Assembly: GCA_964247135.1 (NCBI GenBank)
Contig: CAXTTL010000003.1
Coordinates: 1-45,823, forward strand
Source: an uncultured Deinococcales bacterium
Lineage (GTDB): Bacteria; Deinococcota; Deinococci; Deinococcales; JAAFIG01
Length of the DNA stretch: 45,823 nucleotides
Direction of reading: 5' to 3'
Below are positions 2 through 45,606 of this stretch, piece by piece (positions within the stretch are counted from its first letter, which is position 1; each line of letters begins with the position of its first letter). The notes under the pieces are model-generated. The model saw only the letters and a program-made list of their open reading frames with translations, was not told the DNA's origin and ran no database searches. Both the position numbers and the translations under genes were made by a program.

Positions 2-1669
2 GGTTGTATCCTAAACTTGATAATCAATAATAATCACTGTGGTCATGCACTAGAATTTGGTGAGACGACTCAAGCCAAATCTATAATTGAAAAATCTTTT
101 CCCCAAATACGAACCCTAAATCAAAACGTAAATTTTCTCAATGTACTTGGCTTGACTGCCTATTATGCTGGGGATAGTCAAGAAGCCGCTCTCCTGTTTA
201 CTCAGATGCTCGATTTATTGCAAAGGAGTTCTGACCTCCGATTAAAAACGGTGGCACTTTACAATCGAAGTTTGGCTCGAGGACACTTGAATGACTACTT
301 TGGAAGTCTGGATGACCTTGAAACCGTGACTCGCCTTTGCGCCGAACTGGGAGACAACAAGCGATACGCACATGCTCAAGTTTTTGTTGGCAGAATACTG
401 ACAACACTTGGAGAATATGAAAGAGCCGAAGAAAAACTGGTGTCAAGTCAAGCGATTCTCGAGCCTCTAGGGTCGTCAAGTGCGCTGCTTGATTGCGTAC
501 GAAGCTTAAGTTCACTTTATTGCGATTGGCAACCTCCTTACGGCGGCACCCTGGCAATAAAATATGCGTCCATGGCTTTGCAGTATGCTCGATTTTTACA
601 AACCCCTTCAAAAGTCGCAATGGGTTTGTATGACTCGGCAATAGCGCAAGTTGTATTCGGTAATGCCGCTCATGGTTTGGAATTTGCTTTGGAAATGTTG
701 GAGCTGGCGCAATCGACCAAGCAACCAGAACTAATTCATTGTGCATATTTTTCGCAAGCGCTTTCTCTTAGTGCAATCCACCAACCAACCAAGGCGCTTG
801 CGGTTTTTGAACAGGCATTGGGTGTAGTGAAAGAACCACTACAGCAACATTTAACTGGTCTTGAAATGGCTCGACTCACCAACGATCTTGAGCGTGCCCA
901 AATCTCTCTTGCTTGGTTTAAAGATCACAATTTAATGAACGGTGTCAACATCGCACTCCGTTACTTTCCAGAACTCAAAGCCGAATCCCATCAAACACCA
1001 ACCACTCCAACATCAGAATCCATTCCGCAGCTCGAGGTGCTTGGTTCAATGCAAACCAGTCTCGAGTCCCAGATCACACCTGTGCGCGGTCGCAAACGCC
1101 AAGAACTTCTGGCACTCTTGCTCGAGGCTCGAATCTCTGGGCGCAACGAAGTTTCCAAACTCGAGCTTGCCGATAAACTGTATCCAGACACCGACGAAAT
1201 TCAAGCCAACGCGGGCTTGCGTGATGTGATTTACCAAATCCGCTCGAGCCTCGCTGAAACGGCGATCACCACCACCGCAAACGGTTACGCGCTGGGCGGT
1301 TTGAAGACGGATGTCGAAACCTTTTTACAGACTGGCAACACCAAACTTTGGCGCGGCGTGTACCTGGAAGGTCTGACGCTCGAAACTTCGGACACGGTGC
1401 GCGAAAGTCTTTATCTGGCACTCCGAACCCGTGCCCAAGCCTTGCTCGAGACTGATCCGCTCGAGGTGATTCGGATTGGTCGCTTGCTGTGCGAAGCTGA
1501 CCCTTACGATCTCGAGGCGCTGCGTTTGACGGTGATGGGTTTGCGGGCGGGACAAAATCACCGCAGCCTATCGCGGTTTTACGGGTCTGCCCGAACGAGG
1601 TTTCTCGAGATTGGTGAAGAACTGCCTGAAACCTGGCAGGAATTTCTTGCACCTGTTACGAGCGACTGA
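2..1669 (+). CDS. TPR protein with C-terminal SARP-like wHTH/BTAD module (5'-truncated by window edge); paralog of 31506..34646 and 35022..38144
   Basis: Frame is open from the window start. TPR-like helices are followed by motifs shared with the two paralogs: LYCDWQPPYGG-LAxKY, RYFPEL, LEVLGSMQ, RGRKRQELLALLLEARISG, TTANGYALG, LWRGVYL, EADPYDLE. Confidence 0.85.
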   Translation, partial: GCILNLIINNNHCGHALEFGETTQAKSIIEKSFPQIRTLNQNVNFLNVLGLTAYYAGDSQEAALLFTQMLDLLQRSSDLRLKTVALYNRSLARGHLNDYFGSLDDLETVTRLCAELGDNKRYAHAQVFVGRILTTLGEYERAEEKLVSSQAILEPLGSSSALLDCVRSLSSLYCDWQPPYGGTLAIKYASMALQYARFLQTPSKVAMGLYDSAIAQVVFGNAAHGLEFALEMLELAQSTKQPELIHCAYFSQALSLSAIHQPTKALAVFEQALGVVKEPLQQHLTGLEMARLTNDLERAQISLAWFKDHNLMNGVNIALRYFPELKAESHQTPTTPTSESIPQLEVLGSMQTSLESQITPVRGRKRQELLALLLEARISGRNEVSKLELADKLYPDTDEIQANAGLRDVIYQIRSSLAETAITTTANGYALGGLKTDVETFLQTGNTKLWRGVYLEGLTLETSDTVRESLYLALRTRAQALLETDPLEVIRIGRLLCEADPYDLEALRLTVMGLRAGQNHRSLSRFYGSARTRFLEIGEELPETWQEFLAPVTSD

Positions 1670-4031
1670 CGCGCACTTTTTCTGGGGTCAGGGCATACTC
1701 GAGGGCTTCGGAGTGGGTCATGGCACGACCACTGATCCAGGCGAGATTCCACTCGAGATCGGGAACGCGTTTTCTGGCTTCTTCCGTCCAGTGTTCAAAC
1801 CGCTCACGGTCAACAGGTGACCATTGATAACCGTTTATTTCATAGACCGCTTCGACATTGCCCCAAAGCCTTGCCGCCCTGAGCAGGTCTGAAGTGTTGG
1901 CTTCAGGATTGACCCACGAGGCGGCGAGGTCGGCTAAGGTGTCCGTCAACATCAACCTGCGCTCCATTTTCATTCCCAAGCGAAGGGCTTCTTTTAAAAA
2001 TGTTTGTGCTGTTTTGAAATCCTTGCGCTCCAGTGAGATTTCCCCCAAAACCCTGCACAACACCGGTTCCCAAAAAAAATCTGAATGTTTTCGACAGATC
2101 GCTAAACCTTCCTGGGCAAGTGTTTGTGCCTTGGCGTAATCTCCCAATGCCAATTTGGTATCTGCCAGCAAAAACAATGCTCCACACAAATGATAAGGAC
2201 TGCGAGGGTAGTGCAACCGTTTGTCAGGACCTGCCCTCACTTGAAAGAACGAAGACTTGTCATCAATTGGTGTGGATTGCTCAACCATCAATCGGCATAA
2301 ATCAAGCGCTGGCTCGAGTGCCTCGAGTGCCTCGTGGTGTAAGCCTTGCTCGAGTGCAACTTTGCCTGCCATTTGTAACATCACCACTTCCCAGTCGATG
2401 CGCCCGATCTGGCGACTGAGGGCAAGTCCTTCGGCAATCCAAGGCGGGGTCAACTCGAAAGCGCCAGTCTGCCAAGCGTAAGTACAGCCCATGTTAAGCG
2501 TCCAAATCCGCGATTCTGGTTCTATGTCCTGGCTGAGTGCCAATGTTGCTTTTAACCATTCAAGCCCTTCGCTTGGATAACCCCTACCTTGCCAGAACCA
2601 ATCCAATGACTGAACCAAATGCAGGAGTTGTTCAATTTTTGAGCTGTCCAAAGCCCTGCGAAGTGCCGCTCGTAAATTTCCGATTTCTGTTTCGTGCCAG
2701 TTTAAATCGACTTCTTTACTTATTTGTGCTTGGGAAATTTGCAAGTAATGCTCGAGGTGCGCGTCTCGAGCCGCTTCAAGTTCTTCACTCACCCTCAGTT
2801 GCTCGAGTGCGTACTCACGCAACGTCTCGAACAGGGTGTACCGTTCGCCATCATGTTGAATCAAATGCTCGTCCAAAAGTGCGTGTAAGTCCGTCTCTCG
2901 AGCCTCACAGAGGCTCAAGGCGGCTGTGGAGTCAAAGCCACCCACAAAGACACCCACATGTCTGAAAATTCGTTTTAAACGCACCTCGAGCCGTTCGTAA
3001 CTCCAGGCAATCGCGCCTTGCAAGGTGCGTTGGCGTTCGGAGTGGTCTGATGGTCCAGCACCCAAAGCGTTTAACACCTGGGCTTTGAGTTGCGCCGCAA
3101 GTTCTTCGGGGCTGGTGTGGCGCAAACGCACCGCCGCCAACTCGAGCGCGAGTGGTAAACCTTCAAGCCGTGTGACAATCTCGGCAATGGTGCTGGCGTT
3201 CTGAGCATTCAAACTGAACTTTGGGTCAAATGCCCGAACCCGCTCGAGGAACAATTGCACGGCTGGGTTGTCCGCAACGTGTGCCAACCCAGGCAGCTTC
3301 AAAGGCTCGAGCGCCCATTCTTGCTCGCCGTACAAACGCAAGGCAGTGCGGCTGGTCACCAGCACCCGCAAATCAGCACATTGCTCGAGCAAGCCCGAAA
3401 GTGCTGGGGCGGCGGTCAGCAAATGCTCGAAGTTGTCCAACACAAGCAACAACTGTTTGTCACGCAAAAAGTTTTGCAGTCGCAAAACCCGAGATTGCAC
3501 ACCACCATCCACCAAGCCAAGCCGTCGGATCACGCTTGGCAAAACCTGGTCAGGATGATCCAGGGCTGCCAATGGCACGACATAAACCCCATCGGCAAAG
3601 TGCGGCTGCAATTCGTGTGCCAGTTGCAACGCCAGTCGGGTTTTGCCCACCCCAGGCGCTCCGATCAGGGTCAACAACCGCGTTTGAGGTTGCAACATCA
3701 AATCTTGCAACCTCGAGAGTTCAGCCTCACGCCCAATTAAAGCGGTCAACGGCAACGGAATTTGACCCGACAGTATTTTGGCAGCGCTGGAGGCTCGAGC
3801 AACTGCGGGTTTGGCTTTTGCAAGGCGCAAAAAACGCTCGAGGTCGGCTGCTTCAATCTCGAGGTGCTGCGCCAAGGCTTCCGCCACCATGGGCGAGGGA
3901 CGGCGATGACCTTCCTCAATTTTTTGAATGGTGACAGGCGCACAACCGATCAGCTTCGCCAATTTCTTCTGGGTCAACCAGAGTTCCTTGCGCCGCTCGC
4001 GTACCCAATCGCCGATGGTCGTGCCTTCCAT
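1656..4031 (-). CDS. XRE-HTH + STAND (NB-ARC-like) ATPase + TPR transcriptional regulator
   Basis: N-terminal XRE HTH (LTQKKLAKLIGCAPVTIQKIEEGHRRPS), Walker A GAPGVGKT, Walker B LLLVLDNFEH, GLPLALELAA motif, C-terminal TPRs. Confidence 0.9.
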   Translation of the reverse strand: MEGTTIGDWVRERRKELWLTQKKLAKLIGCAPVTIQKIEEGHRRPSPMVAEALAQHLEIEAADLERFLRLAKAKPAVARASSAAKILSGQIPLPLTALIGREAELSRLQDLMLQPQTRLLTLIGAPGVGKTRLALQLAHELQPHFADGVYVVPLAALDHPDQVLPSVIRRLGLVDGGVQSRVLRLQNFLRDKQLLLVLDNFEHLLTAAPALSGLLEQCADLRVLVTSRTALRLYGEQEWALEPLKLPGLAHVADNPAVQLFLERVRAFDPKFSLNAQNASTIAEIVTRLEGLPLALELAAVRLRHTSPEELAAQLKAQVLNALGAGPSDHSERQRTLQGAIAWSYERLEVRLKRIFRHVGVFVGGFDSTAALSLCEARETDLHALLDEHLIQHDGERYTLFETLREYALEQLRVSEELEAARDAHLEHYLQISQAQISKEVDLNWHETEIGNLRAALRRALDSSKIEQLLHLVQSLDWFWQGRGYPSEGLEWLKATLALSQDIEPESRIWTLNMGCTYAWQTGAFELTPPWIAEGLALSRQIGRIDWEVVMLQMAGKVALEQGLHHEALEALEPALDLCRLMVEQSTPIDDKSSFFQVRAGPDKRLHYPRSPYHLCGALFLLADTKLALGDYAKAQTLAQEGLAICRKHSDFFWEPVLCRVLGEISLERKDFKTAQTFLKEALRLGMKMERRLMLTDTLADLAASWVNPEANTSDLLRAARLWGNVEAVYEINGYQWSPVDRERFEHWTEEARKRVPDLEWNLAWISGRAMTHSEALEYALTPEKVRVSRS

Positions 4032-5964: not shown

Positions 5965-6231
5965 GTGAATCTTGTGGAAGATTCGGGGGATTTCTGGGAA
6001 GGTCGGCGACAGGCGGCGACGCTGCGTTACCGATTGTGTCCAAGTTGCTTTAGGGCGGTGCCAGCCAGCTCGAGCGAACGGTACTGCATCAACGACGGCT
6101 CGTGGTTGCTCGAGGCTTGCCCGCTGTGCAATACCAGCATCACCAACCCGTATGCCCGTTACTGCGCCACATGCGGGCTGGAATTCGCAACGCTCGAGCA
6201 AGCAAAGATTGCACCAGAGTCTCGAGCGTAG
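5965..6231 (+). CDS. Small double zinc-ribbon protein
   Basis: CPSC..C-I-N-D..CPLC..CATC; RBS AAGGAGG + GTG; paralog of 41346..41561. Confidence 0.75.
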   Translation: MNLVEDSGDFWEGRRQAATLRYRLCPSCFRAVPASSSERYCINDGSWLLEACPLCNTSITNPYARYCATCGLEFATLEQAKIAPESRA

Positions 6232-6242
6232 GAGGTCAGTCT

Positions 6243-6554
6243 ATGAACCGATTTGCTTTATGGAAAGCCTTGATTTTCGTAGCACTAAAATTGCCCAAGG
6301 CTCGACTTTTGAAGCTCGAGCGCAAATAAAGTTGGGTGGCGTTCGTTGTGAAAACCTTAAAAGACCGTAAGTACGCCCAACGCGCCCGCAGACGATTTTG
6401 CAAAGGCACTTGTTTTGTCGCCCCCGTGGATTTGGTCTTGACTGGAAAACGTACCCTCGAGCAATGGGCGACCATTTTGAGTGAAGAACGTGACCTTGCG
6501 TTGGAAGCCAATGCAACCCAAGTCAACAAGCACTTCAGCATCACCCGAACCTAA
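6243..6554 (+). pseudogene. Probable degenerate gene with internal stop
   Basis: Strong RBS AGGAGG, ATG 6243 (MNRFALWKALIFVAL), in-frame TAA at 6327-6329, then the same frame continues to 6554. Confidence 0.35.
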
Positions 6555-6571
6555 CCTTCCCTAAACACAAC

Positions 6572-6645
6572 CTCGAGATTCCCGTGTGATTCGCTCGAGA
6601 TTCGTGAATTCTCCTCACCCAGAGAGCCTGAACACGGGCAGGCTC
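6572..6645 (+). ncRNA. Candidate kissing-loop cis RNA element, copy A
   Basis: Hairpin CTCGAG/CTCGAG with loop CCCGTGT; hairpin GAGCCTG/CAGGCTC with loop AACACGGG, complementary to the first loop; homologous to 43703..43779. Confidence 0.55.
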
Positions 6646-6682
6646 GAGATTCAACCTCAGCCTATTTTGAAAGGAACCATTC

Positions 6683-7483
6683 ATGCTCAACATCAACCGC
6701 CGCGATGCAATCAAACTTTTGGGCACAGCCGCCTTTGGGCTGATCTCGAGCCAGAATGCTGGTCTCGCCCAGAACGCCCGAATTGGCAAATTAACGGGAG
6801 CACCCGTTTTTGCCAAATACCCCGAATCGTTTGTCAACCTCAAAGTCCCCGCCGACAAGCCGCACACCACCGCTTACGCCGGTGAAACGCCGCAAGAAAG
6901 CACCTTGCTGCTGCGCACCCAAACCCGTCGGGCGTTCCATTACCACCAGAGTAAACTCGAGGTGGCGTACATCTGGCAGGGCGTCGGGGAAACGCTGGTC
7001 GGCAATGATCGCTATCCGATTGGTCCTGGGCAGGGCTGGGTCTTCGAGCCGCGCACCTCGCACGGTTTCGAGGGAAAGTTCGACATCATGGCGGTCTTCA
7101 CGCCGCAATTTCAAGCCGATGCGGTCAACATTGCCCAAGGCACCGGTCCGATGGAGGGACACGCCGTGCCGTTCACCTTTCAAGCGCCCAACTTGGAGGC
7201 AGGCTTGCCATTTGCGGCGAAGCTGCTGGTTGAGGTTCCCTCCGCGACGGTTGCGGCGCTCAAAGTGGATACCCTTCAAGCCTGGCATTATCATGTCAGC
7301 AAGGACGAAATGCTGATGGTGGTGGCTGGAACTGGTTACATTCAAGCCGAAACCAGCCGCCGAAAAGTTGAGCCTGGCAGCATCGCCATGATTCCCGCTG
7401 GGGCGTTGCATAAAATTCAGGGAAAACTCGAGTTGATCTCAATTACGACTCCGGCGCAGGCTGGTGATGTCAGGTTCGTTTAA
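6683..7483 (+). CDS. Tat-exported bicupin protein
   Basis: Tat motif NRRDAIKLLG; two cupin motifs (FHYH..LE..H; WHYH..DE..H). Confidence 0.8.
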   Translation: MLNINRRDAIKLLGTAAFGLISSQNAGLAQNARIGKLTGAPVFAKYPESFVNLKVPADKPHTTAYAGETPQESTLLLRTQTRRAFHYHQSKLEVAYIWQGVGETLVGNDRYPIGPGQGWVFEPRTSHGFEGKFDIMAVFTPQFQADAVNIAQGTGPMEGHAVPFTFQAPNLEAGLPFAAKLLVEVPSATVAALKVDTLQAWHYHVSKDEMLMVVAGTGYIQAETSRRKVEPGSIAMIPAGALHKIQGKLELISITTPAQAGDVRFV

Positions 7484-10923: not shown

Positions 10924-11216
10924 TTCGGATCGCGTTGCCGTACCACTTGCAAACCCTGGCACAAGTCGGCAAAGAAATCTCGCTCGAGGTTGAGGGCGCA
11001 ATCACCCAACGCGCGGTGTTGAACGCGCTCGAGGACAAGTACCCAATGCTGCGCGGCACCATCCGTGACCACACGACCCAAATGCGCCGCCCGTTCCTGC
11101 GGTTTTTTGCGCTCGAGCAAGACCTCAGTTTTGATGCGCCCGATGACCCACTGCCCGAGGCGGTCGCTCGAGGAACTGAGCCTTTGCTGGTGGTGGGCGC
11201 AATTGTGGGTGGTTAA
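10920..11216 (+). CDS. MoaD/ThiS-family ubiquitin-like protein
   Basis: ATGA overlap with the BNR gene; MIRIALP..; C-terminal AIVGG di-glycine. Confidence 0.9.
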
Positions 11217-11740
11217 TGTCAAAAACATCCGACCAAAACTTGCTCGAGGCGGTGCTGGACTCCTGGGATCGCAACAACACAATCATGGTCGGTCTGCTTC
11301 GCGCCGTGCCAAAATCCGGATTGGAGGCTCAAGCAACCTCGAGCGGTCCATCTGTTGCCGCGTTGTTCTCGCATGTTTGCCATGTTCGGGTCTGCACAAT
11401 CTGCGAAACCAAAACCGAATTTGCCAGAACCCACCTCGAGTTAATCCCAGCCGACAGTCAAGAATGGTTCGAGGAATTTGACCTCGAGCGGCTTGAAAAC
11501 AGTTTGAACGACAGCGCCAAACTGGTGCGTGACGCCGTGCGAATTTGGCTCGAGGCTGGCATCGGCAGGTCGGAACTCGGTTACGATCATCCGATGTTAA
11601 TGCTGCAACACCTGCTCTGGCACGAGGCGTATCACGTTGGGCAGATCAAACTTTCCCTGAAATTAACGGGCAACCCAATGACCGATCAGGAAGCGGGCGC
11701 AGTGACCTGGAACGTTTGGCGGCAGCACAAAAATTCATGA
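11216..11740 (+). CDS. DinB-family protein
   Basis: SVAALFSHV..; QHLLWHEAYHVGQI metal-binding His motif. Confidence 0.85.
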   Translation: MSKTSDQNLLEAVLDSWDRNNTIMVGLLRAVPKSGLEAQATSSGPSVAALFSHVCHVRVCTICETKTEFARTHLELIPADSQEWFEEFDLERLENSLNDSAKLVRDAVRIWLEAGIGRSELGYDHPMLMLQHLLWHEAYHVGQIKLSLKLTGNPMTDQEAGAVTWNVWRQHKNS

Positions 11741-11783
11741 TTGAAATTACCTACCTCGAGAAACAAATTCAAAAGGAGCCAGC

Positions 11784-12272
11784 ATGTTACTTGACGAATT
11801 GAAAATGTTTTTGCTGCGCGATATCGCCGCCCTGGAACGCGAACTCGAGCTTTACCCCGACGACTCGAGCGTTTGGCAAAGCGTCACTGGACTCCCCAAT
11901 TCGGCGGGGAATTTGATCTTGCACGTTTCTGGAAGTTTGCAACATTTTTTTGGGGCGTTGCTTGGCAACAGCGGTTATCTGCGAAACCGTGAGGCAGAAT
12001 TTAGCAGGCGCGACGTTCCACGCAGCGAACTCAGGCAAGAACTTGCCGCAGCAAGAAAAGGTGTGCTTGCGGGTTTTGAGCACTTAACAGAACAAAGTCT
12101 CGAGCAACCTTTTCCTGCCAGAATCACCGATTCTGACCTTTCGACCAGACTGACGATTTTGCAATTTGTGACGCACTTGGCGTATCACCTGGGGCAAATT
12201 GATTATCACCGCCGCATGGTGACGGGCAATCCTGCGTCGGCTGACACGATTGCCGCACCAAAGGTAGTGTGA
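11784..12272 (+). CDS. DinB-family (DUF1572-like) protein
   Basis: NSAGNLILHVSG, RNREAEF, HLAYHLGQIDYHRR. Confidence 0.85.
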   Translation: MLLDELKMFLLRDIAALERELELYPDDSSVWQSVTGLPNSAGNLILHVSGSLQHFFGALLGNSGYLRNREAEFSRRDVPRSELRQELAAARKGVLAGFEHLTEQSLEQPFPARITDSDLSTRLTILQFVTHLAYHLGQIDYHRRMVTGNPASADTIAAPKVV

Positions 12273-12302
12273 GACTGTGTTTTGCAGCTTTAAGGGGTGC
12301 CA

Positions 12303-12833
12303 ATGAAAACTGAATATTTTTATCAATACTTAACAAAAACGCGCCGCGAACTTTGGGATTCCTTGCGTGAATTGTCGGATGAGGAACTTTCCAAACCCGT
12401 TGTTCCCACCGACGGCGCACGCTGCATCAAAGACCTGATCGCCCACATTGCCATGGTGGAAGACGGTTGGTTTCGCGGTGATCTGCTGGGTCAGCCCCTG
12501 GTGATGGATCAGATGGGCAGAGAACCCACTTTAGACGACGCGTACTGGCATCATCAAGACGAGTCACTCGAGTCGTTGCTTGGGTATTGGGAAGCCGTAG
12601 AAAAAGACACCTTGGCACGTTGGTCGGATTTGATGAAATTGGTTGACGCCAACCACCGTGTTCCTGCGAATGACAATAAACCCGAACTCACCATCACTGC
12701 CGATGAGGTGATTTGGCATGTCATGCAACATGAGGTTCGTCACAGCGCCCATATCGTTCAGATGATTCGGTTGCTTGGACACAAACCCCCCTCCCTCGAT
12801 TTGGTGTTTTTTGCCGCCCCTGACGACACTTAA
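12303..12833 (+). CDS. DinB-family protein
   Basis: IKDLIAHIAMVEDGW; WHVMQHEVRHSAHI. Confidence 0.85.
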   Translation: MKTEYFYQYLTKTRRELWDSLRELSDEELSKPVVPTDGARCIKDLIAHIAMVEDGWFRGDLLGQPLVMDQMGREPTLDDAYWHHQDESLESLLGYWEAVEKDTLARWSDLMKLVDANHRVPANDNKPELTITADEVIWHVMQHEVRHSAHIVQMIRLLGHKPPSLDLVFFAAPDDT

Positions 12834-25953: not shown

Positions 25954-28887
25954 ATGCTTCGGCTACTCGGCACACCGCGCTTTGAAGGCACCCAAACCGG
26001 CGAACTCTCGCTCGAGCGACCGCTGTGGTTGGTGGCGTTCCTGGCGGCTCGAGAAACCTGGGTGTCGCGCGAAGAATTGGTCTTGCTGTTCTGGTCCGAA
26101 GCCGATGAGGCGTCGGGGCGCCAGAGTTTACGTCAATTGCTCTACCGCGCCAGAAGTTTGGTCTTTGGGCAACACCTCGAGACTGAGACGCTGCGGGTAC
26201 GTTACAACGGCGCGAGTGACATTGCCCTGTTTAAAAAAGCCTTGCATCTTCAGGATTGGGCGGCGGCGCTCGAGTTGTACACGGCTGAGTTTTTGCTGAA
26301 CATCAACCCTGCGGGTTCGCTCGAGTTTGAATCCTGGCTCGAGTTTGAACGCGAGGAATTGCAATCGGGTTGGCGCAACGCGGTCTTGCAACGGGCGGCG
26401 CAACTGGAAGGCTTGAACGAATTTGTGGCGGGTTTTCAATGCCTGGACACCGCGTTAAAGCACGATCCTTTAAACGATGAATTCGTGCGTGCCATGCTGA
26501 AATTGGCGAGGAGTGCCAAACTCGAGCAGGTCGGTTTGAGTATTTTTGAACGCTTCGGGCGCGAGTTTAAACACGTGCTCGAGCTGGACGTGCCAGAGGA
26601 CATTCGTGAATTGGCTTCCAATTTGCGCACCGGTTTGAACCCCTTGCCAATTGCTGAGAATACCTTGCCGCGCGAAGCCAAAACATTGTCAAGCCAGAAC
26701 AGCCTGCCCATCAACATGACGGCTTTCGTCGGGCGGCAAAACGAGTTGCTCGAGGTGCGAAAGCGTGTCCTTGACCCAGAATGTCGCCTGCTGACTTTGG
26801 TTGGCGCGGGCGGAATTGGCAAAACCCGTTTGGCGCTCGAGGTCGCCAGGCAATCGGAAAACGAATTTCGAGATGGCGTGATCTTCGTTTCACTCGCGCC
26901 ACTCGAGAATCCGGCGCTGCTTGAAGCCACGATTCTTGAGGCGCTCGGTTTGAAAATTGCCGGTGATAAGGCGCAACAACAACTCATTGAAAACCTGCGC
27001 GACAAAAACTTGCTGTTGGTGCTCGACAATTTCGAGCACCTTCTCGAAGTCAGCAATGTGGTCAGCATCATCCTCGAGCACGCCCTGGGTGTCCGGGTGC
27101 TCGCCACCAGCCGCGAAGCGCTGGGCTTGCGCGGCGAATGGGTGATCGAACTCGAGGGGCTGCCGAGTCCAGACCATTTCAGTGCGCTGGAAAGCCAAGA
27201 CGCCGCCAACCTCTTTGGCACCAGCGCCCGCCGCGTCAACAGCGCTTTTAAGCTCGAGCTTGGCGACCTGCCAGATTTTTCGCGCATCTGCAAAGCCGTG
27301 GCGGGAATGCCGCTCGGACTCGAGATCGCCTCGAGTTGGACGCGCGTTTTGTCCTTGGGCGAGATTGCCGAGGAACTCGAGCGCGACCCCGATTCGCTCG
27401 AGATTTCATCGCGCGACCTGCCAATGCGGCAACGCAGCCTGCGGGCGGTGTTTGAACATTCCTGGAATTTACTGCGCCCCGTTGAGCAAGCCATTCTGGC
27501 ACGGTTGTCGGTCTTCAGGGGCGGTTTTGACCGCGATGCTGCGCTGGAAGTTGCTGGGGCGCGACTGCCGAGTTTGCTGGCGTTGGTGCAAAAATCCTTG
27601 GTGCAAAAAAATCCCGAAAAACGTTTTGAACTTCACAGCATCGTGCGCCAATATTCTGAACGTAAACTCGAGGTTGGCGAGCGTCAGGGCACCCTGGCAA
27701 AACACGCTCAGTATTACCTCAAAAACCTCGAGCAGGCGGGGCGCGGTCTGGTCGGACCGCAAATGCAACTCGTGCTTGAAGCCATCAACCTCGAGCATGA
27801 CAACTTTCGCGCCGCGCTCGAGTTTGGACTTCAATTCGACCCCGTTGGCGGCGCAAAAATGTGTCACAACCTCGAATCGTTCTGGTATGTGCGCGGGCAT
27901 CATACCGAAGGGCTAACCTGGGCGAAACGTTACCTCGAGCATCCAGATTTGCAGCAACCCGACGCCACCCGCGTCAAAATTCTGTTTTGCGCCTCGAGCC
28001 TGTCCAAAGAACTCGGCTATTACCAGGACGCAAGGGCTTGGAGTTTGGAACGCCTGATGCTCTGTCAACAACTGGGTGATGCGGCGGGTGAAGCCAAGAC
28101 CGAGCGCTTTTTGGGCGTGCTCGCCCGCGAACAAGGGAACCTCGCCGAAGCCCGCGAGCGCCTGGAACGCGCCGTGGCGCAAAGCCAAGACCTGAACGAG
28201 CCGATGGAACACTCGATAGCTTATAACGACCTTGGCATCGTGTATGCCTACCAAGACGAGCCTTTAAAAGCCCAAGATTGCTTTCAAAAAAGCCTGTCCA
28301 TCAAACGCGAGCTGGGCGACCAGCAAGGCATCGCCTACGCTCTGGGCAACCTCGCGCAGATCGCTTTTGAGCTGGGCAATATTGAGCACGCGCACCATAT
28401 CGAACTCGAGAGTCTGGCGTTAAAACGCGAACTGGGCGACCTGCAAGGCATCGCCAACTCGCTCGCCAATTTGGGTCAAAACGCCCTGAACGACAACGAT
28501 TACGACCAAGCCAGAAGTTACTTCGATGAAAGCCTGAGCATTTTACGCAGTCTCGGCAGGCGCTTTACCATCGGCGAGCTGTTCCAAAGTTACGTCGAAC
28601 TGGCACGGCGCGAAGGGCAATTTGAACGCAGCGTGCGCTTGATTGGCGCGATCCGCAACCTGGACCGCAGCCTCGGGGCGCAAATCAGACCCGAAAAACA
28701 AGAAAAACACGAACGTATTCTGAACGAGGCTCGAGCGCACCTGGACAACCCCAAGCTCGAGCAAGTGAAATCTGAGGGCGAGAACGCCAATCTGGACACC
28801 ATGATCGCTTACGCCCTGCGCGAACCCGAGATCAAACAACGCCGCTCGAGCGAGGTGAGAGCTGGTGTCAGCCCACTGATCGGTTGA
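25954..28887 (+). CDS. SARP-type regulator: N-terminal wHTH + BTAD, STAND ATPase, TPRs
   Basis: LRLLGTP, REELVLLFW, LRQLLYR; GAGGIGKT; LLVLDNFEH; GMPLGLEIA; C-terminal TPRs. Confidence 0.92.
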   Translation: MLRLLGTPRFEGTQTGELSLERPLWLVAFLAARETWVSREELVLLFWSEADEASGRQSLRQLLYRARSLVFGQHLETETLRVRYNGASDIALFKKALHLQDWAAALELYTAEFLLNINPAGSLEFESWLEFEREELQSGWRNAVLQRAAQLEGLNEFVAGFQCLDTALKHDPLNDEFVRAMLKLARSAKLEQVGLSIFERFGREFKHVLELDVPEDIRELASNLRTGLNPLPIAENTLPREAKTLSSQNSLPINMTAFVGRQNELLEVRKRVLDPECRLLTLVGAGGIGKTRLALEVARQSENEFRDGVIFVSLAPLENPALLEATILEALGLKIAGDKAQQQLIENLRDKNLLLVLDNFEHLLEVSNVVSIILEHALGVRVLATSREALGLRGEWVIELEGLPSPDHFSALESQDAANLFGTSARRVNSAFKLELGDLPDFSRICKAVAGMPLGLEIASSWTRVLSLGEIAEELERDPDSLEISSRDLPMRQRSLRAVFEHSWNLLRPVEQAILARLSVFRGGFDRDAALEVAGARLPSLLALVQKSLVQKNPEKRFELHSIVRQYSERKLEVGERQGTLAKHAQYYLKNLEQAGRGLVGPQMQLVLEAINLEHDNFRAALEFGLQFDPVGGAKMCHNLESFWYVRGHHTEGLTWAKRYLEHPDLQQPDATRVKILFCASSLSKELGYYQDARAWSLERLMLCQQLGDAAGEAKTERFLGVLAREQGNLAEARERLERAVAQSQDLNEPMEHSIAYNDLGIVYAYQDEPLKAQDCFQKSLSIKRELGDQQGIAYALGNLAQIAFELGNIEHAHHIELESLALKRELGDLQGIANSLANLGQNALNDNDYDQARSYFDESLSILRSLGRRFTIGELFQSYVELARREGQFERSVRLIGAIRNLDRSLGAQIRPEKQEKHERILNEARAHLDNPKLEQVKSEGENANLDTMIAYALREPEIKQRRSSEVRAGVSPLIG

Positions 28888-30744: not shown

Positions 30745-31487
30745 CGCTACCAACTCAAAAACGGTTGCAATTGGAATGACCTACCCAGGGATTTACCACC
30801 GTACTCCACGGTGTACTGGCATTACAAACAATGGCGAGATGATGGTACGCTCGAGATCATCCTGCAAAAATTGCATGAATTGGTACGGCTCAAAGCTCAA
30901 AAAAACCGAAGTGGACGAGGTTGATGCTGGTTGACTCTCAAGCCGTGAAGAACACTTGCAATGCCAGTATTGAAAGCAAAGGCTTTTGTCATTACAAAGC
31001 CACGAATGGGATCAAACGACATTTGGCAGTGGATACGCTCGGATTTCCTTTTTTCACGCACTGTACGAAAGCGAGTGTGTCTGACGATCAAGGATTGATT
31101 CAAATGTTCGAGAAGAACATCGAGTATTTCAAAAGCAAACCTGTGAACATTGCCAAGATCACGATTTTGTTGGATTACGGATATCACTTGGAAACGATCA
31201 AAGCTGGGCTGGTCAAGGTTTATCCAAGTATTTTGAGTAAGGTTCGTTTTGAGCAGTCTGAAAAGCCTTCAAAGGCTCAGAAGCGAGCCTTGGGAAAATC
31301 TGGGTTTGTGCCTGCGAAATGGCGTTGGGTGATTGAACGGTCGAATGCTTGGGTGGAGCGGTGCAAGAGCTTGGTCAAGAACTTCGAGTGGAGTCTGGCG
31401 AATGCGACGGCGAAATTGAATTTGTGTTTTATTCGGTTGATGTTGAAGCGCTTGGCAGCATCATGAAAAGATACCAAATAGGTTCTA
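30745..31487 (+). mobile_element. 5'-truncated IS5-family element (two ORFs joined by -1 frameshift)
   Basis: orfA remnant YQLKNGCNWNDLPRDLPPYSTVYWHYKQW; A7 slippery site 30899-30905; orfB DSQAVKN, KRHLAVDTLG, RWVIERSNAW; putative right end ..ATACCAAATAGGTTCTA; no left end. Confidence 0.85.
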
Positions 31488-31505
31488 TAGCAGGTGTCCT
31501 TGTGT

Positions 31506-41595: not shown

Positions 41596-43686
41596 ATGAA
41601 ATTATCATTGTTTGGAGTTGCTGGGGTGCTGGCTGTTTCGCTGACCGCCTGCTGGACTGAAACACCACCTCCACTACCGAATTCTGAAACCATCATTCCC
41701 GTGACCACCAAAGTGGCAGACCAGAGCACCAAAAACGCACTGACCGGATTTGATCTCAAAACAGGCATCATGCGCTTCTCGCAGAACACTTCGGTGTTGC
41801 AGGCGCTCAAAGCAGGCGATGTGCTTTCAGGGGGACGCTCGAACAATGCGCCAGATGGCTTTTTGCGCAAGGTCACAGCCATCAAAAACGCAAACGGCGA
41901 AACCGTGCTCGAGACGACCCAAGCCATGCTGACCGATGCCATCTCCAAGGGAAAGATTGATGTGAGTGGCACACTCACCGCCGCCAACCTGCACAGCACC
42001 GCGCTCCGACCAGGTGTCGCCCTGCGAACGGGCAGGTTTCGTGGTGGTTTCAACCAAGAAGCCAACTTGGATGTCGTGTACCATCCCGACGCACCCGGCA
42101 CAGGCGAGGTTCATATTACAGGTTTGGTGGATTTTAACCTGGGCTACCACATCGGCGTGGACATTGACTTTTGCTTTATTCCACCCGTTTGCCTGAACCA
42201 TTTTGATGCCAGCGTGGGTTTCGATCAACTCGCGGATTTGAAGGTCACGGGTCATCTCGAGACGCCCATCAAAAAAGACATCGAAATTGCCTCAAGCGAT
42301 TATTGGACGACCATTTCGATTTTGGACATCGAAATTCCTGTGGATTTCAAGGTGACACTCTCAATTGGTTTGGACGGCAAAGCCAGCGTGCAATTCAGTT
42401 ACCAAGGCACGCAGAGCGCCGCCTTAAAAGTTGGCGAAGAGTACAACGATGGTCGCGGTTGGAGTCCAATCGCCGAGAAAAATTTCACGCTCTTGCCAGG
42501 CGCACCGCAAGTCACGGGCAGCGTCGAGGTGCAAGCCACCACCGACTTCGAGACTCAGGTGTTGCTGATTGGTTTTGTCGGTCCTGGTCTGAAAGCCTCG
42601 GCGGGTTTGGAATTGAACGGGGAAATCCCGAGAAACCCGATCTGGACACTTTCAGGGCTGGCAAGTTTGGATGTCACCTTCGTGGTGGACGTGCCGGTGA
42701 TTGGCAAGATTGTCGATTACAGCGCCAATATTTTGAAGTGGAGCAGCGAACTGGCACGTTCGCAAAACACAGCGCCCACCATCAGCCTTCAGACCAACCA
42801 GAGCCACCTCGAGTTTGGCAGACCGTTTTACTTTGCGAGCGGTTATCCAATGTATGCCGCCAGCGACCTCGAGGATGGCACGGTCAACAACTTTAAATTG
42901 AGTTCGGACAAAGACGGCGCAATCGACACCAACCATGTTTTTAGCGGCGTCGGCTCGAGGCTAATCACCGTGACCGCCACCGACAGCCAGGGGGCAAGCT
43001 CGAGCGCCAATTTCACGCTAAATGTGATTAACACCCCGCCCAAAGTCAGCTTGACCACCTCGAGCAACCTGCCAGTGTACGTGGGCATTCCCACAGAACT
43101 TTCTGGTTTTGCCACAGAGATCAACCCCGTGACCGGGCAACCCAACCTGCCTGTGCCGTGCAATCGCATGTACTGGACGAGCAGCAATGCAACTGATGTT
43201 GTCCCCTCGAGTTGCAACGGTTCAGCAACTTTTACCAGCAGTGGTGTACGAACACTGACGTTGACTGCCGTTGGGCAAAACGGGGCTTTGGGAATAGCCG
43301 AAGTGCTGATTGCCGTGACCGACCCACCAGATAACATTGCACCCATCATTGATGAAATGCACGTCAAAGACAACACGGGCACTGACGTGACTGCCAGCCA
43401 GACCGTGGCAACAGGTGCTCCATTGCTGTTGTCGGTCAAAGCGCACGACCCCGAAAACGACCCAATTCACTACCAATGGGCTGCCTGTTTGCCAAGTTGG
43501 ACGCCATTGCAATGCAGTCTCTATGGTGACTTGCCCACGAATGCCGATGGTACGGCAACCTTTGATTTCCTCAGTCGTTTTGGCAACTACGGCACGTATA
43601 CCCTCTGGATCACCGCCGACGATGGACACCACACGTTTGCGACCATTGGTTCCATCACCATCACCATCACCCCAAAAATCAATTAA
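41596..43686 (+). CDS. Large beta-rich lipoprotein with C-terminal Ig/PKD-like domains
   Basis: RBS AAGGAG, lipobox LTAC, NTAP..ASDLEDG, NTPP, NIAP..AHDPENDPI repeats. Confidence 0.85.
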   Translation: MKLSLFGVAGVLAVSLTACWTETPPPLPNSETIIPVTTKVADQSTKNALTGFDLKTGIMRFSQNTSVLQALKAGDVLSGGRSNNAPDGFLRKVTAIKNANGETVLETTQAMLTDAISKGKIDVSGTLTAANLHSTALRPGVALRTGRFRGGFNQEANLDVVYHPDAPGTGEVHITGLVDFNLGYHIGVDIDFCFIPPVCLNHFDASVGFDQLADLKVTGHLETPIKKDIEIASSDYWTTISILDIEIPVDFKVTLSIGLDGKASVQFSYQGTQSAALKVGEEYNDGRGWSPIAEKNFTLLPGAPQVTGSVEVQATTDFETQVLLIGFVGPGLKASAGLELNGEIPRNPIWTLSGLASLDVTFVVDVPVIGKIVDYSANILKWSSELARSQNTAPTISLQTNQSHLEFGRPFYFASGYPMYAASDLEDGTVNNFKLSSDKDGAIDTNHVFSGVGSRLITVTATDSQGASSSANFTLNVINTPPKVSLTTSSNLPVYVGIPTELSGFATEINPVTGQPNLPVPCNRMYWTSSNATDVVPSSCNGSATFTSSGVRTLTLTAVGQNGALGIAEVLIAVTDPPDNIAPIIDEMHVKDNTGTDVTASQTVATGAPLLLSVKAHDPENDPIHYQWAACLPSWTPLQCSLYGDLPTNADGTATFDFLSRFGNYGTYTLWITADDGHHTFATIGSITITITPKIN

Positions 43687-43702
43687 CCAATATCAACGAA
43701 AC

Positions 43703-43779
43703 CTCGAGTCCCCACGTGTTGTACTCGAGCTTTGTTCCTCGCACCCTCACTCAGAGAAGCCCGAACGTGGGCGGGCTTC
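43703..43779 (+). ncRNA. Candidate kissing-loop cis RNA element, copy B
   Basis: CTCGAGT/ACTCGAG stem with loop CCCACGT; GAAGCCCG/CGGGCTTC stem with loop AACGTGGG; compensatory changes relative to copy A. Confidence 0.55.
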
Positions 43780-43809
43780 AAAATGCTCCCAACACCCAAG
43801 GAGACGCCT

Positions 43810-45606
43810 ATGCGAAAGTTTTTCATGCCTTTTTTATTGGTCTTGTTGCTGAGTGCCTGTCGCACCCCACCCATGATCTCGAACTTCCAGGCAACACCCG
43901 CGAACCTGCCTGCGGGCGGCGGCAGCGTCAAGCTCGAGTGGGGGGTCAGCGATGCCGATTTGCTCTCGTTGGATCAGGGGGTTGGTGTGGTCGGTGGCAC
44001 TTCAACCACCGTAAATGTCACAACCTCAAAGACCTTTACCTTGACCGCCACAAACACGAGCGGTTTGACGACCGCAAGTGTGGGTGTTGCCGTTGAAACA
44101 TCTGCCTTGACGATCACACCTGCCAGCCTGACATTGACGGCGGGCAGCCCCGCGCAAACCTTCAGCACAACGGCAAACAATGGCGGAACAATCACTTGGA
44201 GTTTGAATCCTGCCGTTGGTGCGGGCAGCCTCAGTGCCACCACGGGGGCAAGCACGGTTTACACGCCCCCCTCGAGCGTGACCGCCACGACCACCGTCAC
44301 CCTCACGGCAACACTGGAAGGCTCGAGCGCCGTTGCCCATGCGAACATCACCCTGAATCCAGCCCCGCCGAGTACGGGCAGCCTTCAAGTCAACATTTCG
44401 GGTTTGCCTTCAGGCGTTGCGGGCAATGTCAGCATCGCTGGACCAAATGGTTTTACCCGAACGCTGGTTGCCAGTGATAACCTGAGCGCCTTGACCCCAG
44501 GCAGTTACACGCTCAGTCCAGCCTCGGTTTCAAAATTGGCAGCCTTCACCGATTCGATCTTTAGCTCGAGTACCACCACCGCCACGGTCAGCGTAGGCAA
44601 TACGGCAACGGTGGAGATTGCTTACGCGCAACTTCCAGGCAGTGGCAAGTTATGGATTGCGTTCAACTATTCCATTGGGGCTTACGATGAATCTCAACTG
44701 ACCTCGGGAACGACACAACCCCCACTGATCGCCTTTGCTGGCGGTGACATTGGTGTCCTCAAGGCACTGGCATTCGATAAAGCTGGCAACCTCTGGACTT
44801 CTGACGGGAATTTCTGCCACCTGTCACGGTTCGCCGCCCACGATCTTGGCAAGATTGGCACGGTCACACCCGATGTCATCATTGGAAACGGCAGGACTTG
44901 CACTGCGGACAAAATTTCCAGCCCGCAAGGTTTGGCATTTGATAAAAACGGCAACCTCTGGGTGGCAGAATATGGCAGTTCTGCGTTGACCATGTACAGC
45001 GCCGCTCAACTGAGCAGCAGCGGAGACCCAACCCCGCTCAAGATCACCAGCACCGCCTTAAAAACACCGCTCTGTCTGGCATTTGACTCGAGCGGCAATT
45101 TGTGGGTCAGCAACTTTGCCGCCCATAACGTCCTGATGTTCGCCCCAGACAAACTCGCTGCCGGAGGGGTGCTCACACCAACACGGACGCTCGAGACACC
45201 CGCGTTTTCTGCACCTTCGGGCGCTGGTCTGCCAGCGGGTCTGGCTTTTGACAAAAATGGCAACCTCTGGGTGAGCAACAACACAAACAAGACACTGTTA
45301 ATGTTCACACCCAGCAAACTTCAGGTTGGTGGCACACAAGCCCCCGACAAAACCGTCAGCCCAAACGTGCCCACACCCGACGCCAGCGGACCAGGTTCAT
45401 TGGCACTGGACAAAGCAGGTAACCTTTGGGTGACGTATGGGTCAAATGCTGCCAACATTGCCGATCACAAAACCGTGCGAATCAACGCGTCCGATCTGAC
45501 AGACGGCGCTGCGCCCAAACCGGCTGCCGAACTGAACGGTTATCAATTTATCAGCCTTGGAGGTTTGGCATTCTATCCAACTCCAGCAGGCTTACCAATC
45601 AATTAA
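43810..45606 (+). CDS. Lipoprotein with Ig-like domains and NHL-like beta-propeller
   Basis: RBS AAGGAG, lipobox LSAC, repeated LAFDxxGNLWV blades, terminal FYPTPAGLP like FYPIPANSP of the paralog. Confidence 0.88.
   Translation: MRKFFMPFLLVLLLSACRTPPMISNFQATPANLPAGGGSVKLEWGVSDADLLSLDQGVGVVGGTSTTVNVTTSKTFTLTATNTSGLTTASVGVAVETSALTITPASLTLTAGSPAQTFSTTANNGGTITWSLNPAVGAGSLSATTGASTVYTPPSSVTATTTVTLTATLEGSSAVAHANITLNPAPPSTGSLQVNISGLPSGVAGNVSIAGPNGFTRTLVASDNLSALTPGSYTLSPASVSKLAAFTDSIFSSSTTTATVSVGNTATVEIAYAQLPGSGKLWIAFNYSIGAYDESQLTSGTTQPPLIAFAGGDIGVLKALAFDKAGNLWTSDGNFCHLSRFAAHDLGKIGTVTPDVIIGNGRTCTADKISSPQGLAFDKNGNLWVAEYGSSALTMYSAAQLSSSGDPTPLKITSTALKTPLCLAFDSSGNLWVSNFAAHNVLMFAPDKLAAGGVLTPTRTLETPAFSAPSGAGLPAGLAFDKNGNLWVSNNTNKTLLMFTPSKLQVGGTQAPDKTVSPNVPTPDASGPGSLALDKAGNLWVTYGSNAANIADHKTVRINASDLTDGAAPKPAAELNGYQFISLGGLAFYPTPAGLPIN

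What the first reader, a model, noticed from the sequence alone, without database searches (positions are those of the whole stretch)
6572..6645. Covarying kissing-loop RNA in the leaders of two unrelated exported-protein genes (second copy 43703..43779)
Both copies have hairpin 1 built from two CTCGAG palindromes, a linker with CCTCACnCAGAGA, and hairpin 2 ending 30-40 nt before the start codon. Loop1/loop2 pairing is CCCGTGT:ACACGGG in copy A and CCCACGT:ACGTGGG in copy B, i.e. compensatory changes. Stem 2 also covaries (GAGCCTG/CAGGCTC vs GAAGCCCG/CGGGCTTC). I recognise no named riboswitch. It could be a nuclease-blocking stabiliser or a regulatory switch within polycistronic mRNAs.
Basis: seen in the sequence. 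Interest (0 to 1): 0.75.

Follow-up and report, generated by a model that had tools for sequence, protein, structure and literature searches.

The report
New intercistronic kissing-loop RNA motif
A conserved 86-base stretch that can fold into two hairpins clasped loop-to-loop sits between genes, mostly in front of exported-protein genes, in one uncultured Deinococcus-related genus; it looks like an undescribed RNA control or processing element, but its function is untested.

Summary
It is a real, selected element, not just a by-product of this genome's hyper-abundant CTCGAG palindrome. Covariance-model, BLAST and pattern searches found 11 copies, all in 5 of 6 genomes of one Deinococcales genus. 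None was found in the other genera, the order, or the metagenome and viral scans, and Rfam has no match.

Paired segments and a 12-nt single-stranded block (CCCUCACUCAGA) keep 72-89% pairwise identity. Internal spacers (35-43%) and flanks (27-29%) have decayed. The 7-bp loop-loop helix is the longest conserved helix in an unbiased column scan.

Covariation is thin: about five independent compensatory events, and two copies have a weakened loop-loop helix.

Every copy lies between co-oriented genes. It starts 3-25 nt after a stop codon in 10 of 11 and ends 19-41 nt before a start codon in the 9 measured.

Downstream genes are a Tat bicupin, lipoproteins and eCIS_core proteins.

My best reading is a cis-acting intercistronic mRNA element for selective processing/stabilisation or protein-responsive control. 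No expression data exist.

The parts
6566..6649 (+). Copy A of the element (whole covariance-model match)
   Evidence: 92.5 bits, E 1.6e-19; nhmmer E 2.4e-20
6572..6599 (+). Copy A hairpin 1: CTCGAG arms 6572-6577 / 6594-6599. The 16-nt loop carries the loop-loop strand CCCGTGT (6581-6587).
6613..6625 (+). Copy A conserved single-stranded linker CCTCACCCAGAGA
   Evidence: linker block has 82% mean pairwise identity over 11 copies
6624..6645 (+). Copy A hairpin 2: GAGCCTG / CAGGCTC. The 8-nt loop holds ACACGGG (6632-6638), which pairs with 6581-6587. A third CTCGAG at 6643-6648 overlaps the 3' arm.
43697..43782 (+). Copy B of the element (whole covariance-model match)
   Evidence: 87.3 bits, E 3.4e-18; nhmmer E 3.8e-17
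43703..43729 (+). Copy B hairpin 1: CTCGAG arms 43703-43708 / 43724-43729. The loop carries CCCACGT (43711-43717).
43745..43757 (+). Copy B conserved linker CCTCACTCAGAGA
43756..43779 (+). Copy B hairpin 2: GAAGCCCG / CGGGCTTC. The loop holds ACGTGGG (43765-43771), which pairs with 43711-43717.
6348..6554 (+). Small conserved ORF (68 aa from the GTG at 6348) whose stop lies 11 nt before copy A. The same subfamily precedes 6 of the 11 copies.
   Evidence: Synonymous third-position variation among 6 loci; family search; no Pfam or NCBIfam hit; AlphaFold2 three-helix model, pLDDT 82
6683..7483 (+). Gene downstream of copy A: bicupin with an N-terminal twin-arginine motif
   Evidence: Cupin_2 E 3.1e-16; RR motif read in the translation
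41596..43686 (+). Gene upstream of copy B: PKD/Ig-like repeat protein; its stop lies 10 nt before the element
43810..45606 (+). Gene downstream of copy B: NHL-repeat beta-propeller lipoprotein (lipobox LSAC read by eye)
   Evidence: NHL E 2.7e-15

Best explanation
The element is a cis-acting structured RNA carried inside polycistronic mRNAs, between two co-oriented genes.

Fold: hairpin 1 (6-12 bp, built around CTCGAG) and hairpin 2 (6-8 bp) are clasped by a 7-bp loop-loop (kissing) helix. A near-invariant 12-nt single strand (CCCUCACUCAGA) is left exposed between them.

I think it most likely works post-transcriptionally as a selective processing/stabilisation signal. An endonuclease or other factor would recognise the fold or the exposed strand. 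The compact fold would then protect one or both flanking mRNA segments from exonucleases. This uncouples the amount of the downstream, mostly exported-protein, cistron from the upstream one.

Shown: the element is homologous across copies, under purifying selection block by block, structured in potential, orientation-locked and intercistronic.

Inferred: that it is transcribed, that the three helices form together, and the whole processing/stability mechanism.

My odds: about 0.7 that it is a functional cis-acting RNA element of some kind, and about 0.35-0.4 for this specific mechanism.
For: 1. Family. 11 copies at E 2.8e-21 to 4.4e-7 in 5 of 6 genomes of one genus, and 0 of 13 genomes of the other four genera of the family. 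The same 11 are the only strong hits in 121 genomes of the order. The own genome has exactly 2 (nhmmer --max).

2. Mosaic conservation over all 55 pairs of copies.
- Helix arms: 72-89% identity.
- Loop-loop strands: 72% and 76%.
- Linker block: 82%.
- Three internal spacers: 35-43%.
- 30-nt flanks: 27-29%.
Decayed spacers inside a conserved frame argue for old copies under selection, not recent copying.

3. Helices.
- An unbiased scan of all column pairs puts the loop-loop helix first (7 pairs, 88% of cells paired), then hairpin 2 (6 pairs, 97%), then the hairpin-1 core (6 pairs, 91%).
- For the named structure, 87.4% of 247 cells pair, against 21-42% when the partners are slid by 1-3 columns.
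- 5 pairs (9 cells) changed on both sides.
- 0 of 500 shuffles reach the observed covariation score.

4. Compensation.
- GU/AC became AC/GU at two adjacent loop-loop pairs.
- U-A became C-G in stem 2.
- A-U became G-C or C-G in the outer part of hairpin 1.
- In the G005 copy-B orthologue the first CTCGAG arm is altered, and a 7-bp outer extension of hairpin 1 (my reading of the sequence printed) keeps the stem.

5. Placement.
- All 11 copies are co-oriented with both neighbouring genes.
- The gap from the upstream stop to the element is 3-25 nt in 10 of 11 and 56 nt in one (copy A read).
- The gap from the element to the start codon is 19-41 nt in the 9 copies measured, each with a Shine-Dalgarno sequence.
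- On one relative's contig two copies bracket a 213-codon gene.

6. No sigma-70 promoter-like site and no terminator-like site at either copy.

7. Selection. The motif is 88% and 93% identical between the G000/G005 orthologous loci, against 77% and 84% at four-fold sites of the adjacent genes. In the G001/G003 pair the downstream eCIS_core genes are saturated (33% aa identity, 27% at four-fold sites), yet both loci match the element model strongly.

8. Precedent. Intergenic stem-loops act as cleavage signals and stabilisers in an operon for extracellular proteins (PMC10311766, abstract read).
Against: - No expression or RNA-end data. No RNA run holds the locus.
- RNAalifold on the 11 copies predicts only hairpin 2, with -7.5 kcal/mol and a covariation term near 0.
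- Single-sequence folding is only weakly better than shuffles: copy A z = -2.26, copy B z = -0.75. Copy A's MFE is a different, nested fold that uses the third CTCGAG.
- Independent compensatory events are few, about five. The loop-loop double change arose once.
- Two copies (G003_C679, G004_C22) keep only 5 loop-loop pairs, and three others have one mismatch.
- Wobble statistics give no strand signal: 9 G-U against 17 A-C cells.
- The element is dispensable. In G002 a small ORF of the same subfamily abuts an eCIS_core gene with no element between them.
- The same architecture arises about 100 times by chance in this CTCGAG-rich genome.
- The shuffle control does not correct for relatedness.
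- The model searches scored only 150 or 49 first-look candidates per genome.
Confidence: 0.38

Rival explanations
1. Protein-responsive leader. The small basic three-helix protein encoded just upstream in 6 of 11 loci binds the fold or its exposed CCCUCACUCAGA strand. It would control the downstream cistron in cis, and the orphan copies in trans. The layout resembles hutP followed by its target RNA, or pyrR and its attenuators (layout recalled; HutP abstract seen, PMC2425495).
For: - The stop of the small ORF lies 3-11 nt before the element in 6 of 11 copies.
- Every genome with the element has at least one such pair. G002, which lacks the element, has only a 60%-identical paralogue.
- The protein is a real gene: variation in its conserved core among six loci is mostly at third codon positions. 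It is basic at the N-terminus and helical.
Against: - The same subfamily occurs without the element (G002:C330 and G005:C7).
- The eight other matches to this ORF in the genome have no element.
- 5 of 11 copies have no small ORF nearby.
- No nucleic-acid-binding family or fold was found.
- The adjacency may simply reflect duplication of a two-part module.
Confidence: 0.15
2. DNA-level element: a low-copy mobile or recombination-associated repeat (MITE/REP-like or cassette junction). Its inverted repeats are kept by DNA processes, not by RNA function.
For: - It sits at junctions where unrelated accessory genes are joined to a conserved module, and the same sORF is followed by different genes.
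- It shows presence/absence polymorphism.
- Flanking genes are accessory. The bicupin and the NHL lipoprotein occur only in G000 and G005.
- A-type copies begin and end with CTCGAG.
- There is no wobble strand bias.
Against: - Only 1-4 copies per genome.
- Internal spacers have decayed to 35-43% identity while stems are kept, which is the opposite of recent transposition.
- I saw no target-site duplication, and no terminal inverted repeat beyond the ubiquitous CTCGAG, when reading the flanks.
- Orientation is strictly locked to transcription, 11 of 11.
- B-type copies lack the terminal CTCGAG.
- No match in 48 viral stretches.
Confidence: 0.12
3. Small-molecule or ion riboswitch. The linker and kissing loops would form a binding pocket that gates translation of the downstream gene.
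For: - Conserved unpaired nucleotides are framed by covarying helices and a tertiary loop-loop contact, as in purine and lysine riboswitch aptamers (abstracts listed).
- It lies 19-41 nt upstream of start codons.
Against: - The downstream genes share no metabolic theme: bicupin, propeller lipoproteins, Ig-like lipoproteins, eCIS_core proteins.
- No conserved expression platform. The Shine-Dalgarno sequence is not consistently sequestered in 9 folded leaders.
- No terminator.
- Restricted to one genus.
Confidence: 0.06
4. No function of its own. The sequence is a leftover of duplicated intergenic DNA, kept similar by gene conversion or by the CTCGAG-generating process.
For: - Narrow distribution and few copies.
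- Two decaying copies (G004_C22, G003_C92b).
- Thermodynamic z-scores are unremarkable.
Against: - Block-wise conservation that coincides with complementary segments.
- Sharp common boundaries at the outer ends of the two hairpins in copies with unrelated flanks.
- Compensatory changes.
- CTCGAG explains only 12-18 of about 50 conserved positions.
Confidence: 0.08

Closest known systems
Intercistronic stem-loops of selective RNA processing and stabilisation (e.g. the cip-cel cellulosome operon of Ruminiclostridium cellulolyticum, PMC10311766; cggR-gapA of B. subtilis, recalled)
   Same: Structured elements in short gaps between co-oriented genes of operons that encode extracellular proteins. 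They lie close behind a stop codon and ahead of the next ribosome-binding site.
   Different: Those are simple GC-rich stem-loops without sequence homology between sites. Here there is one homologous 86-nt family with two hairpins, a conserved loop-loop helix and an invariant single strand. Cleavage and stabilisation are not shown here.
Loop-loop (kissing) tertiary contacts of purine and lysine riboswitch aptamers (PMC1802621, PMC3082890; listing and abstracts only)
   Same: Two hairpins of one RNA are joined by Watson-Crick pairing between their loops, with conserved unpaired nucleotides between them, upstream of a coding region.
   Different: No closing P1 helix or multi-way junction was found in the unbiased helix scan. 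There is a 25-35-nt linker instead of a tight junction, a 7-bp contiguous loop-loop helix, no coherent regulon and no Rfam match.
Guanidine-II (mini-ykkC) riboswitch (recalled from memory)
   Same: Two tandem hairpins upstream of a gene that interact loop to loop.
   Different: mini-ykkC has two near-identical hairpins with ACGR tetraloops. Here the loops are 16-20 nt and 8 nt, unlike each other, and paired over 7 bp. No Rfam hit at E<=10.
HutP / PyrR-type operon leaders (PMC2425495 abstract; PyrR recalled)
   Same: A small regulator gene is followed directly by a structured RNA and then the regulated genes. Extra copies of the RNA lie elsewhere.
   Different: No terminator hairpin with a U-tract. 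The small protein has no detectable relation to any RNA-binding family, and binding is untested.
REP / REPIN / MITE-type intergenic repeats (earlier notes e1-2315113 and e1-2315114 on this genome)
   Same: A short, palindrome-containing intergenic repeat found after stop codons.
   Different: 2 copies per genome instead of tens to hundreds. Orientation is locked to transcription, internal spacers have decayed, and no GTAG head, TIR or TSD was seen.

Membership tests
Any Rfam 15 family | Covariance-model match at the family's gathering score | tested here: not met
   0 matches on the whole window. On three loci at E<=10 there were only three chance hits elsewhere and none on the element.
Purine-riboswitch-like aptamer | Closing helix P1 that forms a three-way junction with the two kissing hairpins | tested here: not met
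   The unbiased scan of all column pairs finds no helix joining the 5' end to the 3' tail.
Guanidine-II (mini-ykkC) | Two similar hairpins capped by ACGR tetraloops | tested here: not met
   Loops are 16-20 nt and 8 nt. No Rfam hit. The definition of the feature is recalled.
Intrinsic terminator / attenuator | GC-rich hairpin followed by a U-tract | tested here: not met
   No terminator-like site at either copy. Hairpin 2 is followed by CGAGAUUCAA in copy A and by AAAAUGCUCC in copy B.
REP/REPIN/MITE | Many near-identical copies per genome | tested here: not met
   2 copies in 5.09 Mb by nhmmer --max; 1-4 per relative; spacers 35-43% identical.
REP/REPIN/MITE | Terminal inverted repeats and target-site duplication | tested here: inconclusive
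   Flanks were read by eye only. I saw nothing beyond CTCGAG at both ends of A-type copies. No strictly orthologous empty site is available.
Selective-processing intercistronic stem-loop | Lies between co-transcribed genes of one operon | tested here: inconclusive
   Same strand and short gaps in 11 of 11 copies; no promoter or terminator predicted. Co-transcription itself is not testable because there is no RNA run.
Selective-processing intercistronic stem-loop | Endonucleolytic cleavage at or near the structure, and different stability of the flanking segments | not testable with these tools
   Needs 5'/3'-end mapping and half-life measurements.
HutP/PyrR-type protein-responsive leader | Regulator protein binds the RNA | not testable with these tools
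   Only adjacency is known (6 of 11 copies). The protein has no known family or fold match.

The most novel reading that the evidence does not exclude
The clasped two-hairpin fold is a bacterial counterpart of exoribonuclease-resistant RNAs, or a self-processing module. In the first case it is a compact kissing-loop knot that stops a 5'-3' (RNase J-type) or 3'-5' exonuclease at a defined point. In the second it cuts itself. Either way it divides polycistronic mRNAs for secreted proteins into segments with different lifetimes. The invariant CCCUCACUCAGA strand would be the catalytic or recognition core.
Probability: 0.1. Interest if true: 0.75.

Novelty: new variant of a known kind. Interest (0 to 1): 0.45.

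Why it matters
If real, this adds an undescribed structured RNA family from a poorly studied, uncultured branch of Deinococcales. Its architecture is rare for bacterial mRNA elements: a long contiguous intramolecular loop-loop helix, placed between cistrons rather than at a 5' end.

It marks a set of fast-evolving accessory genes for exported, surface and eCIS-related proteins as co-regulated. It also links them to an uncharacterised small-protein family that is expanded in this lineage.

The two natural loop variants (A-type and B-type) provide a ready-made compensatory-mutation experiment.

The impact is limited by the narrow distribution (five MAGs), the small number of copies and the absence of any functional data.

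Tried and rejected
- **Rfam:** gathering thresholds and E<=10 gave nothing.
- **Expression:** no RNA holder was listed for window 6200-7000.
- **Metagenome pattern scan:** the pattern was too loose. None matched the whole element by nhmmer (best E 0.0018, partial). This neither shows nor excludes further homologues.
- **Viral contigs:** 48 stretches, none a full match.
- **Strict pattern over the GTDB species genomes:** 6 stretches, all in Deinococcales MAGs already found.
- **Promoter reading:** no sigma-70 site. I also considered, by eye, an ECF-type -35 'GAAC' in loop 2. I rejected it because the implied start site would cut off the Shine-Dalgarno sequences.
- **Anti-SD sequestration by the CCUC of the linker:** not seen in 9 folded leaders.
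- **Trans partner:** the complement of the linker occurs only at scattered, unrelated places.
- **Divergent members by architecture alone:** 109 raw hits, no further family members evident on reading them, many driven by CTCGAG.
- **P2-like repeat family in the genome:** none.
- **Diversity-generating retroelement context:** no reverse-transcriptase family among the Pfam hits for the 36 window ORFs scanned.
- **Empty-site comparison:** the bicupin and the NHL lipoprotein exist only in G000 and G005.
- **Small ORF:** no Pfam, NCBIfam, PDB-fold or Atlas lead.
- **Earlier notes of this scan:** none on the element or the small ORF by sequence or by words.
- **Literature:** full-text searches with 'intramolecular kissing / loop-loop / riboswitch / bacterial / leader' and 'Deinococcus / structured RNA / intergenic regions / motif / pseudoknot' listed no paper on such an element. 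I saw listings and abstract starts only.

Full report
**1. The observation**

Both stretches are as described.

| Feature | Copy A | Copy B |
|---|---|---|
| Whole element | 6566-6649 | 43697-43782 |
| Hairpin 1 arms (CTCGAG) | 6572-6577 / 6594-6599 | 43703-43708 / 43724-43729 |
| Loop-1 strand | CCCGTGT, 6581-6587 | CCCACGT, 43711-43717 |
| Loop-2 strand | ACACGGG, 6632-6638 | ACGTGGG, 43765-43771 |
| Linker | CCTCACCCAGAGA, 6613-6625 | CCTCACTCAGAGA, 43745-43757 |
| Hairpin 2 | 6624-6630 / 6639-6645 | 43756-43763 / 43772-43779 |
| Start codon | 6683 (37 nt on) | 43810 (30 nt on) |

- The loop strands are exact 7-nt complements in both copies.
- The copies are 77% identical over 170 columns.
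- The linker word occurs nowhere else in the 5.09-Mb assembly.

**2.

- CTCGAG is hyper-abundant in this genome: 33,925 copies, 6.7 per kb. It is by far the commonest hexamer.
- The window has 42 CTCGAG pairs spaced 8-30 nt apart, against 0.05 expected.
- A loose two-hairpin-plus-7-bp-loop-match descriptor gives 109 raw hits genome-wide.
- So hairpin 1 as such, and the architecture of one copy, are not significant. The case rests on homologues.

**3. Homologues and distribution**

- BLAST with copy A found five related stretches in three genomes of the same genus, among 41 genomes searched.
- Copy B found only its orthologue in G005, among 21 genomes.
- A covariance model from 8 sequences found 11 copies in the 19 genomes of the family. 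The counts were G000 2, G005 2, G001 2, G003 4, G004 1 and G002 0. The 13 genomes of the four other genera had none.
- A second model of the 3' half found the same 11, plus four weak hits (E 0.009-0.04), in 121 genomes of the order.
- Caveat: only 150 or 49 first-look candidates per genome were scored in these two searches.
- nhmmer with all filters off finds exactly two copies in the own genome.
- A strict pattern over one genome per GTDB species hit six stretches, all titled Deinococcales MAGs.
- The metagenome and viral scans gave only chance matches.
- Rfam has no match.

**4. Is it under selection, and as a structure?**

Mean pairwise identity by segment over all 55 pairs of the 11 copies:

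| Segment | Identity |
|---|---|
| Hairpin-1 arms | 78% and 72% |
| Loop-loop strands | 72% and 76% |
| Conserved linker | 82% |
| Hairpin-2 arms | 78% and 89% |
| Three internal spacers | 35-43% |
| 30-nt flanks | 27-29% |

- This mosaic means old copies with block-wise constraint, not recent copying.
- An unbiased scan of every column pair ranks the loop-loop helix first (7 pairs, 88% paired). Hairpin 2 follows (6 pairs, 97%), then the hairpin-1 core (6 pairs, 91%).
- For the three named helices, 87.4% of 247 cells pair, against 21-42% when partners are slid.
- Five pairs (9 cells) changed on both sides, and no shuffle of 500 reaches the covariation score. That control ignores relatedness.

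Compensatory events:
- Two adjacent loop-loop pairs changed together (A-type to B-type). The B-type is seen in G000_B, its orthologue, and G003_C92c. G003_C92c sits one column out of register in the alignment, so it was counted as unpaired.
- One stem-2 pair changed from U-A to C-G.
- Two outer hairpin-1 pairs changed.
- In the G005 orthologue of copy B the first CTCGAG arm is altered. A 7-bp outer extension of hairpin 1 keeps the stem (my reading of the sequence printed).

Against:
- RNAalifold alone returns only hairpin 2.
- Folding z-scores are -2.26 and -0.75.
- Copy A's MFE is a nested alternative that uses a third CTCGAG (6643-6648).
- Two copies keep only 5 loop-loop pairs and three have one mismatch.
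- There are 9 G-U against 17 A-C cells, so wobble gives no strand signal.

**5. Setting**

- All 11 copies lie between genes on the same strand as the element.
- The element begins 3-25 nt after the upstream stop in 10 copies and 56 nt after it in one (copy A read).
- It ends 19-41 nt before a start codon with a Shine-Dalgarno sequence in the 9 copies measured.
- One copy is cut by a contig end. One has its next ORF about 240 nt away.

Upstream genes:
- In 6 copies it is a small ORF (window 6348-6554). Variation in its conserved core among six loci is mostly at third codon positions.
- In the others it is a PKD/Ig protein (copy B, G005_C72, G003_C92a), a Peptidase_S74 protein (G003_C92c), or a 213-aa protein.

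Downstream genes:
- A twin-arginine bicupin (A).
- An NHL-propeller lipoprotein (B).
- Two eCIS_core proteins.
- Three further lipoproteins.
- Most are unrelated to each other.

Other context:
- On one G003 contig two copies bracket the 213-codon gene.
- No sigma-70 promoter and no terminator-like site lies at either window copy.
- The bicupin and the NHL lipoprotein occur only in G000 and G005, so these are accessory genes.

**6. The small ORF**

- Its family has 9 matches in G000; a paralogue used as query found 11.
- It is present in 19 of 19 genomes of the family, but in only 7 of 82 genomes of a neighbouring family.
- It has no Pfam or NCBIfam match.
- AlphaFold2 gives three helices (pLDDT 82), with no PDB fold match.
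- The eight other matches in G000 are not followed by the element.
- In G002 and G005, ORFs of the same subfamily abut an eCIS_core gene or a secreted-protein gene without it.
- The element is therefore optional at such junctions.

**7. Reading**

- Orientation lock, intercistronic placement, block-wise conservation of complementary segments and the lack of promoter or terminator point to an RNA element inside polycistronic mRNAs.
- Of the possible mechanisms I favour selective processing/stabilisation. Intergenic stem-loops do this in an operon for extracellular proteins (PMC10311766, abstract).
- A protein-responsive leader that uses the adjacent small protein is the main rival.
- A metabolite riboswitch is unlikely. 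The downstream genes share no theme and no expression platform is conserved.
- A mobile DNA repeat is unlikely because of the decayed spacers and low copy number.
- None of this is tested at the RNA level. No RNA run holds the locus.

**8. Novelty and score**

- The element is not in Rfam 15.
- Two full-text searches listed nothing like it.
- It is a new family of a known kind of thing (a structured cis-acting mRNA element) with an unusual architecture and placement.
- It has thin covariation, a one-genus range and no functional data.
- Interest: 0.45.

Noticed in passing
whole genome; window 1-45823: CTCGAG occurs 33,925 times in 5.09 Mb (303 times in the window). That is about 27 times the count expected if all hexamers were equally frequent (my arithmetic), and ten times the next palindromic hexamer.
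   Followed up: partly
window 6348-6554 (+); paralogues on G000 contigs C6, C8, C28, C170, C197, C222, C341, C358: An uncharacterised family of 65-80-aa proteins (consensus about MKRxxYMKRAxxRFLxGTxFRxPVEAVEAGxRTLExWADxLAEERELE). It has 9-11 copies in this genome, is present in all 19 genomes of the family, and is sporadic in a neighbouring family. No Pfam or NCBIfam match; predicted three-helix fold without a PDB match.
   Followed up: partly
L258 (G002:C308) about 550-600: Right after a stop codon and ahead of an ABC-permease-like gene lies a perfect 14-bp hairpin (AACCTCGAGCCTGA / TCAGGCTCGAGGTT). Its sequence resembles the linker plus hairpin 2 of the element, but it lacks hairpin 1 and the loop-loop partner. 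It scores 17.4 bits with the model on that stretch. It may be a reduced relative or a chance resemblance.
   Followed up: partly
L036 (G002:C330) and L051 (G005:C7): Small ORFs of the same CxGTC subfamily are followed directly by an eCIS_core gene (gap about 20 nt) or by a secreted-protein gene, with no element between them.
   Followed up: partly
window 1656-4031 (-), 25954-28887, 31494-34646, 35022-38144 (+): Four large STAND-type NTPase-TPR proteins (HTH + NB-ARC + TPR; AAA_16 + TPR) lie near both element-bearing gene clusters. Whether they regulate those clusters is unknown.
   Followed up: no
window 11216-12833 (+): Three DinB-family genes in a row.
   Followed up: no
window 30921-31466 (+): A 181-aa ORF with a DDE_Tnp_1 transposase domain, probably a fragment.
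   Followed up: no
window 5965-6330 (+): A double-zinc-ribbon protein (5965-6231) and a 28-codon ORF (6244-6330, read) lie just upstream of the small ORF. They are possibly part of the same transcription unit.
   Followed up: no
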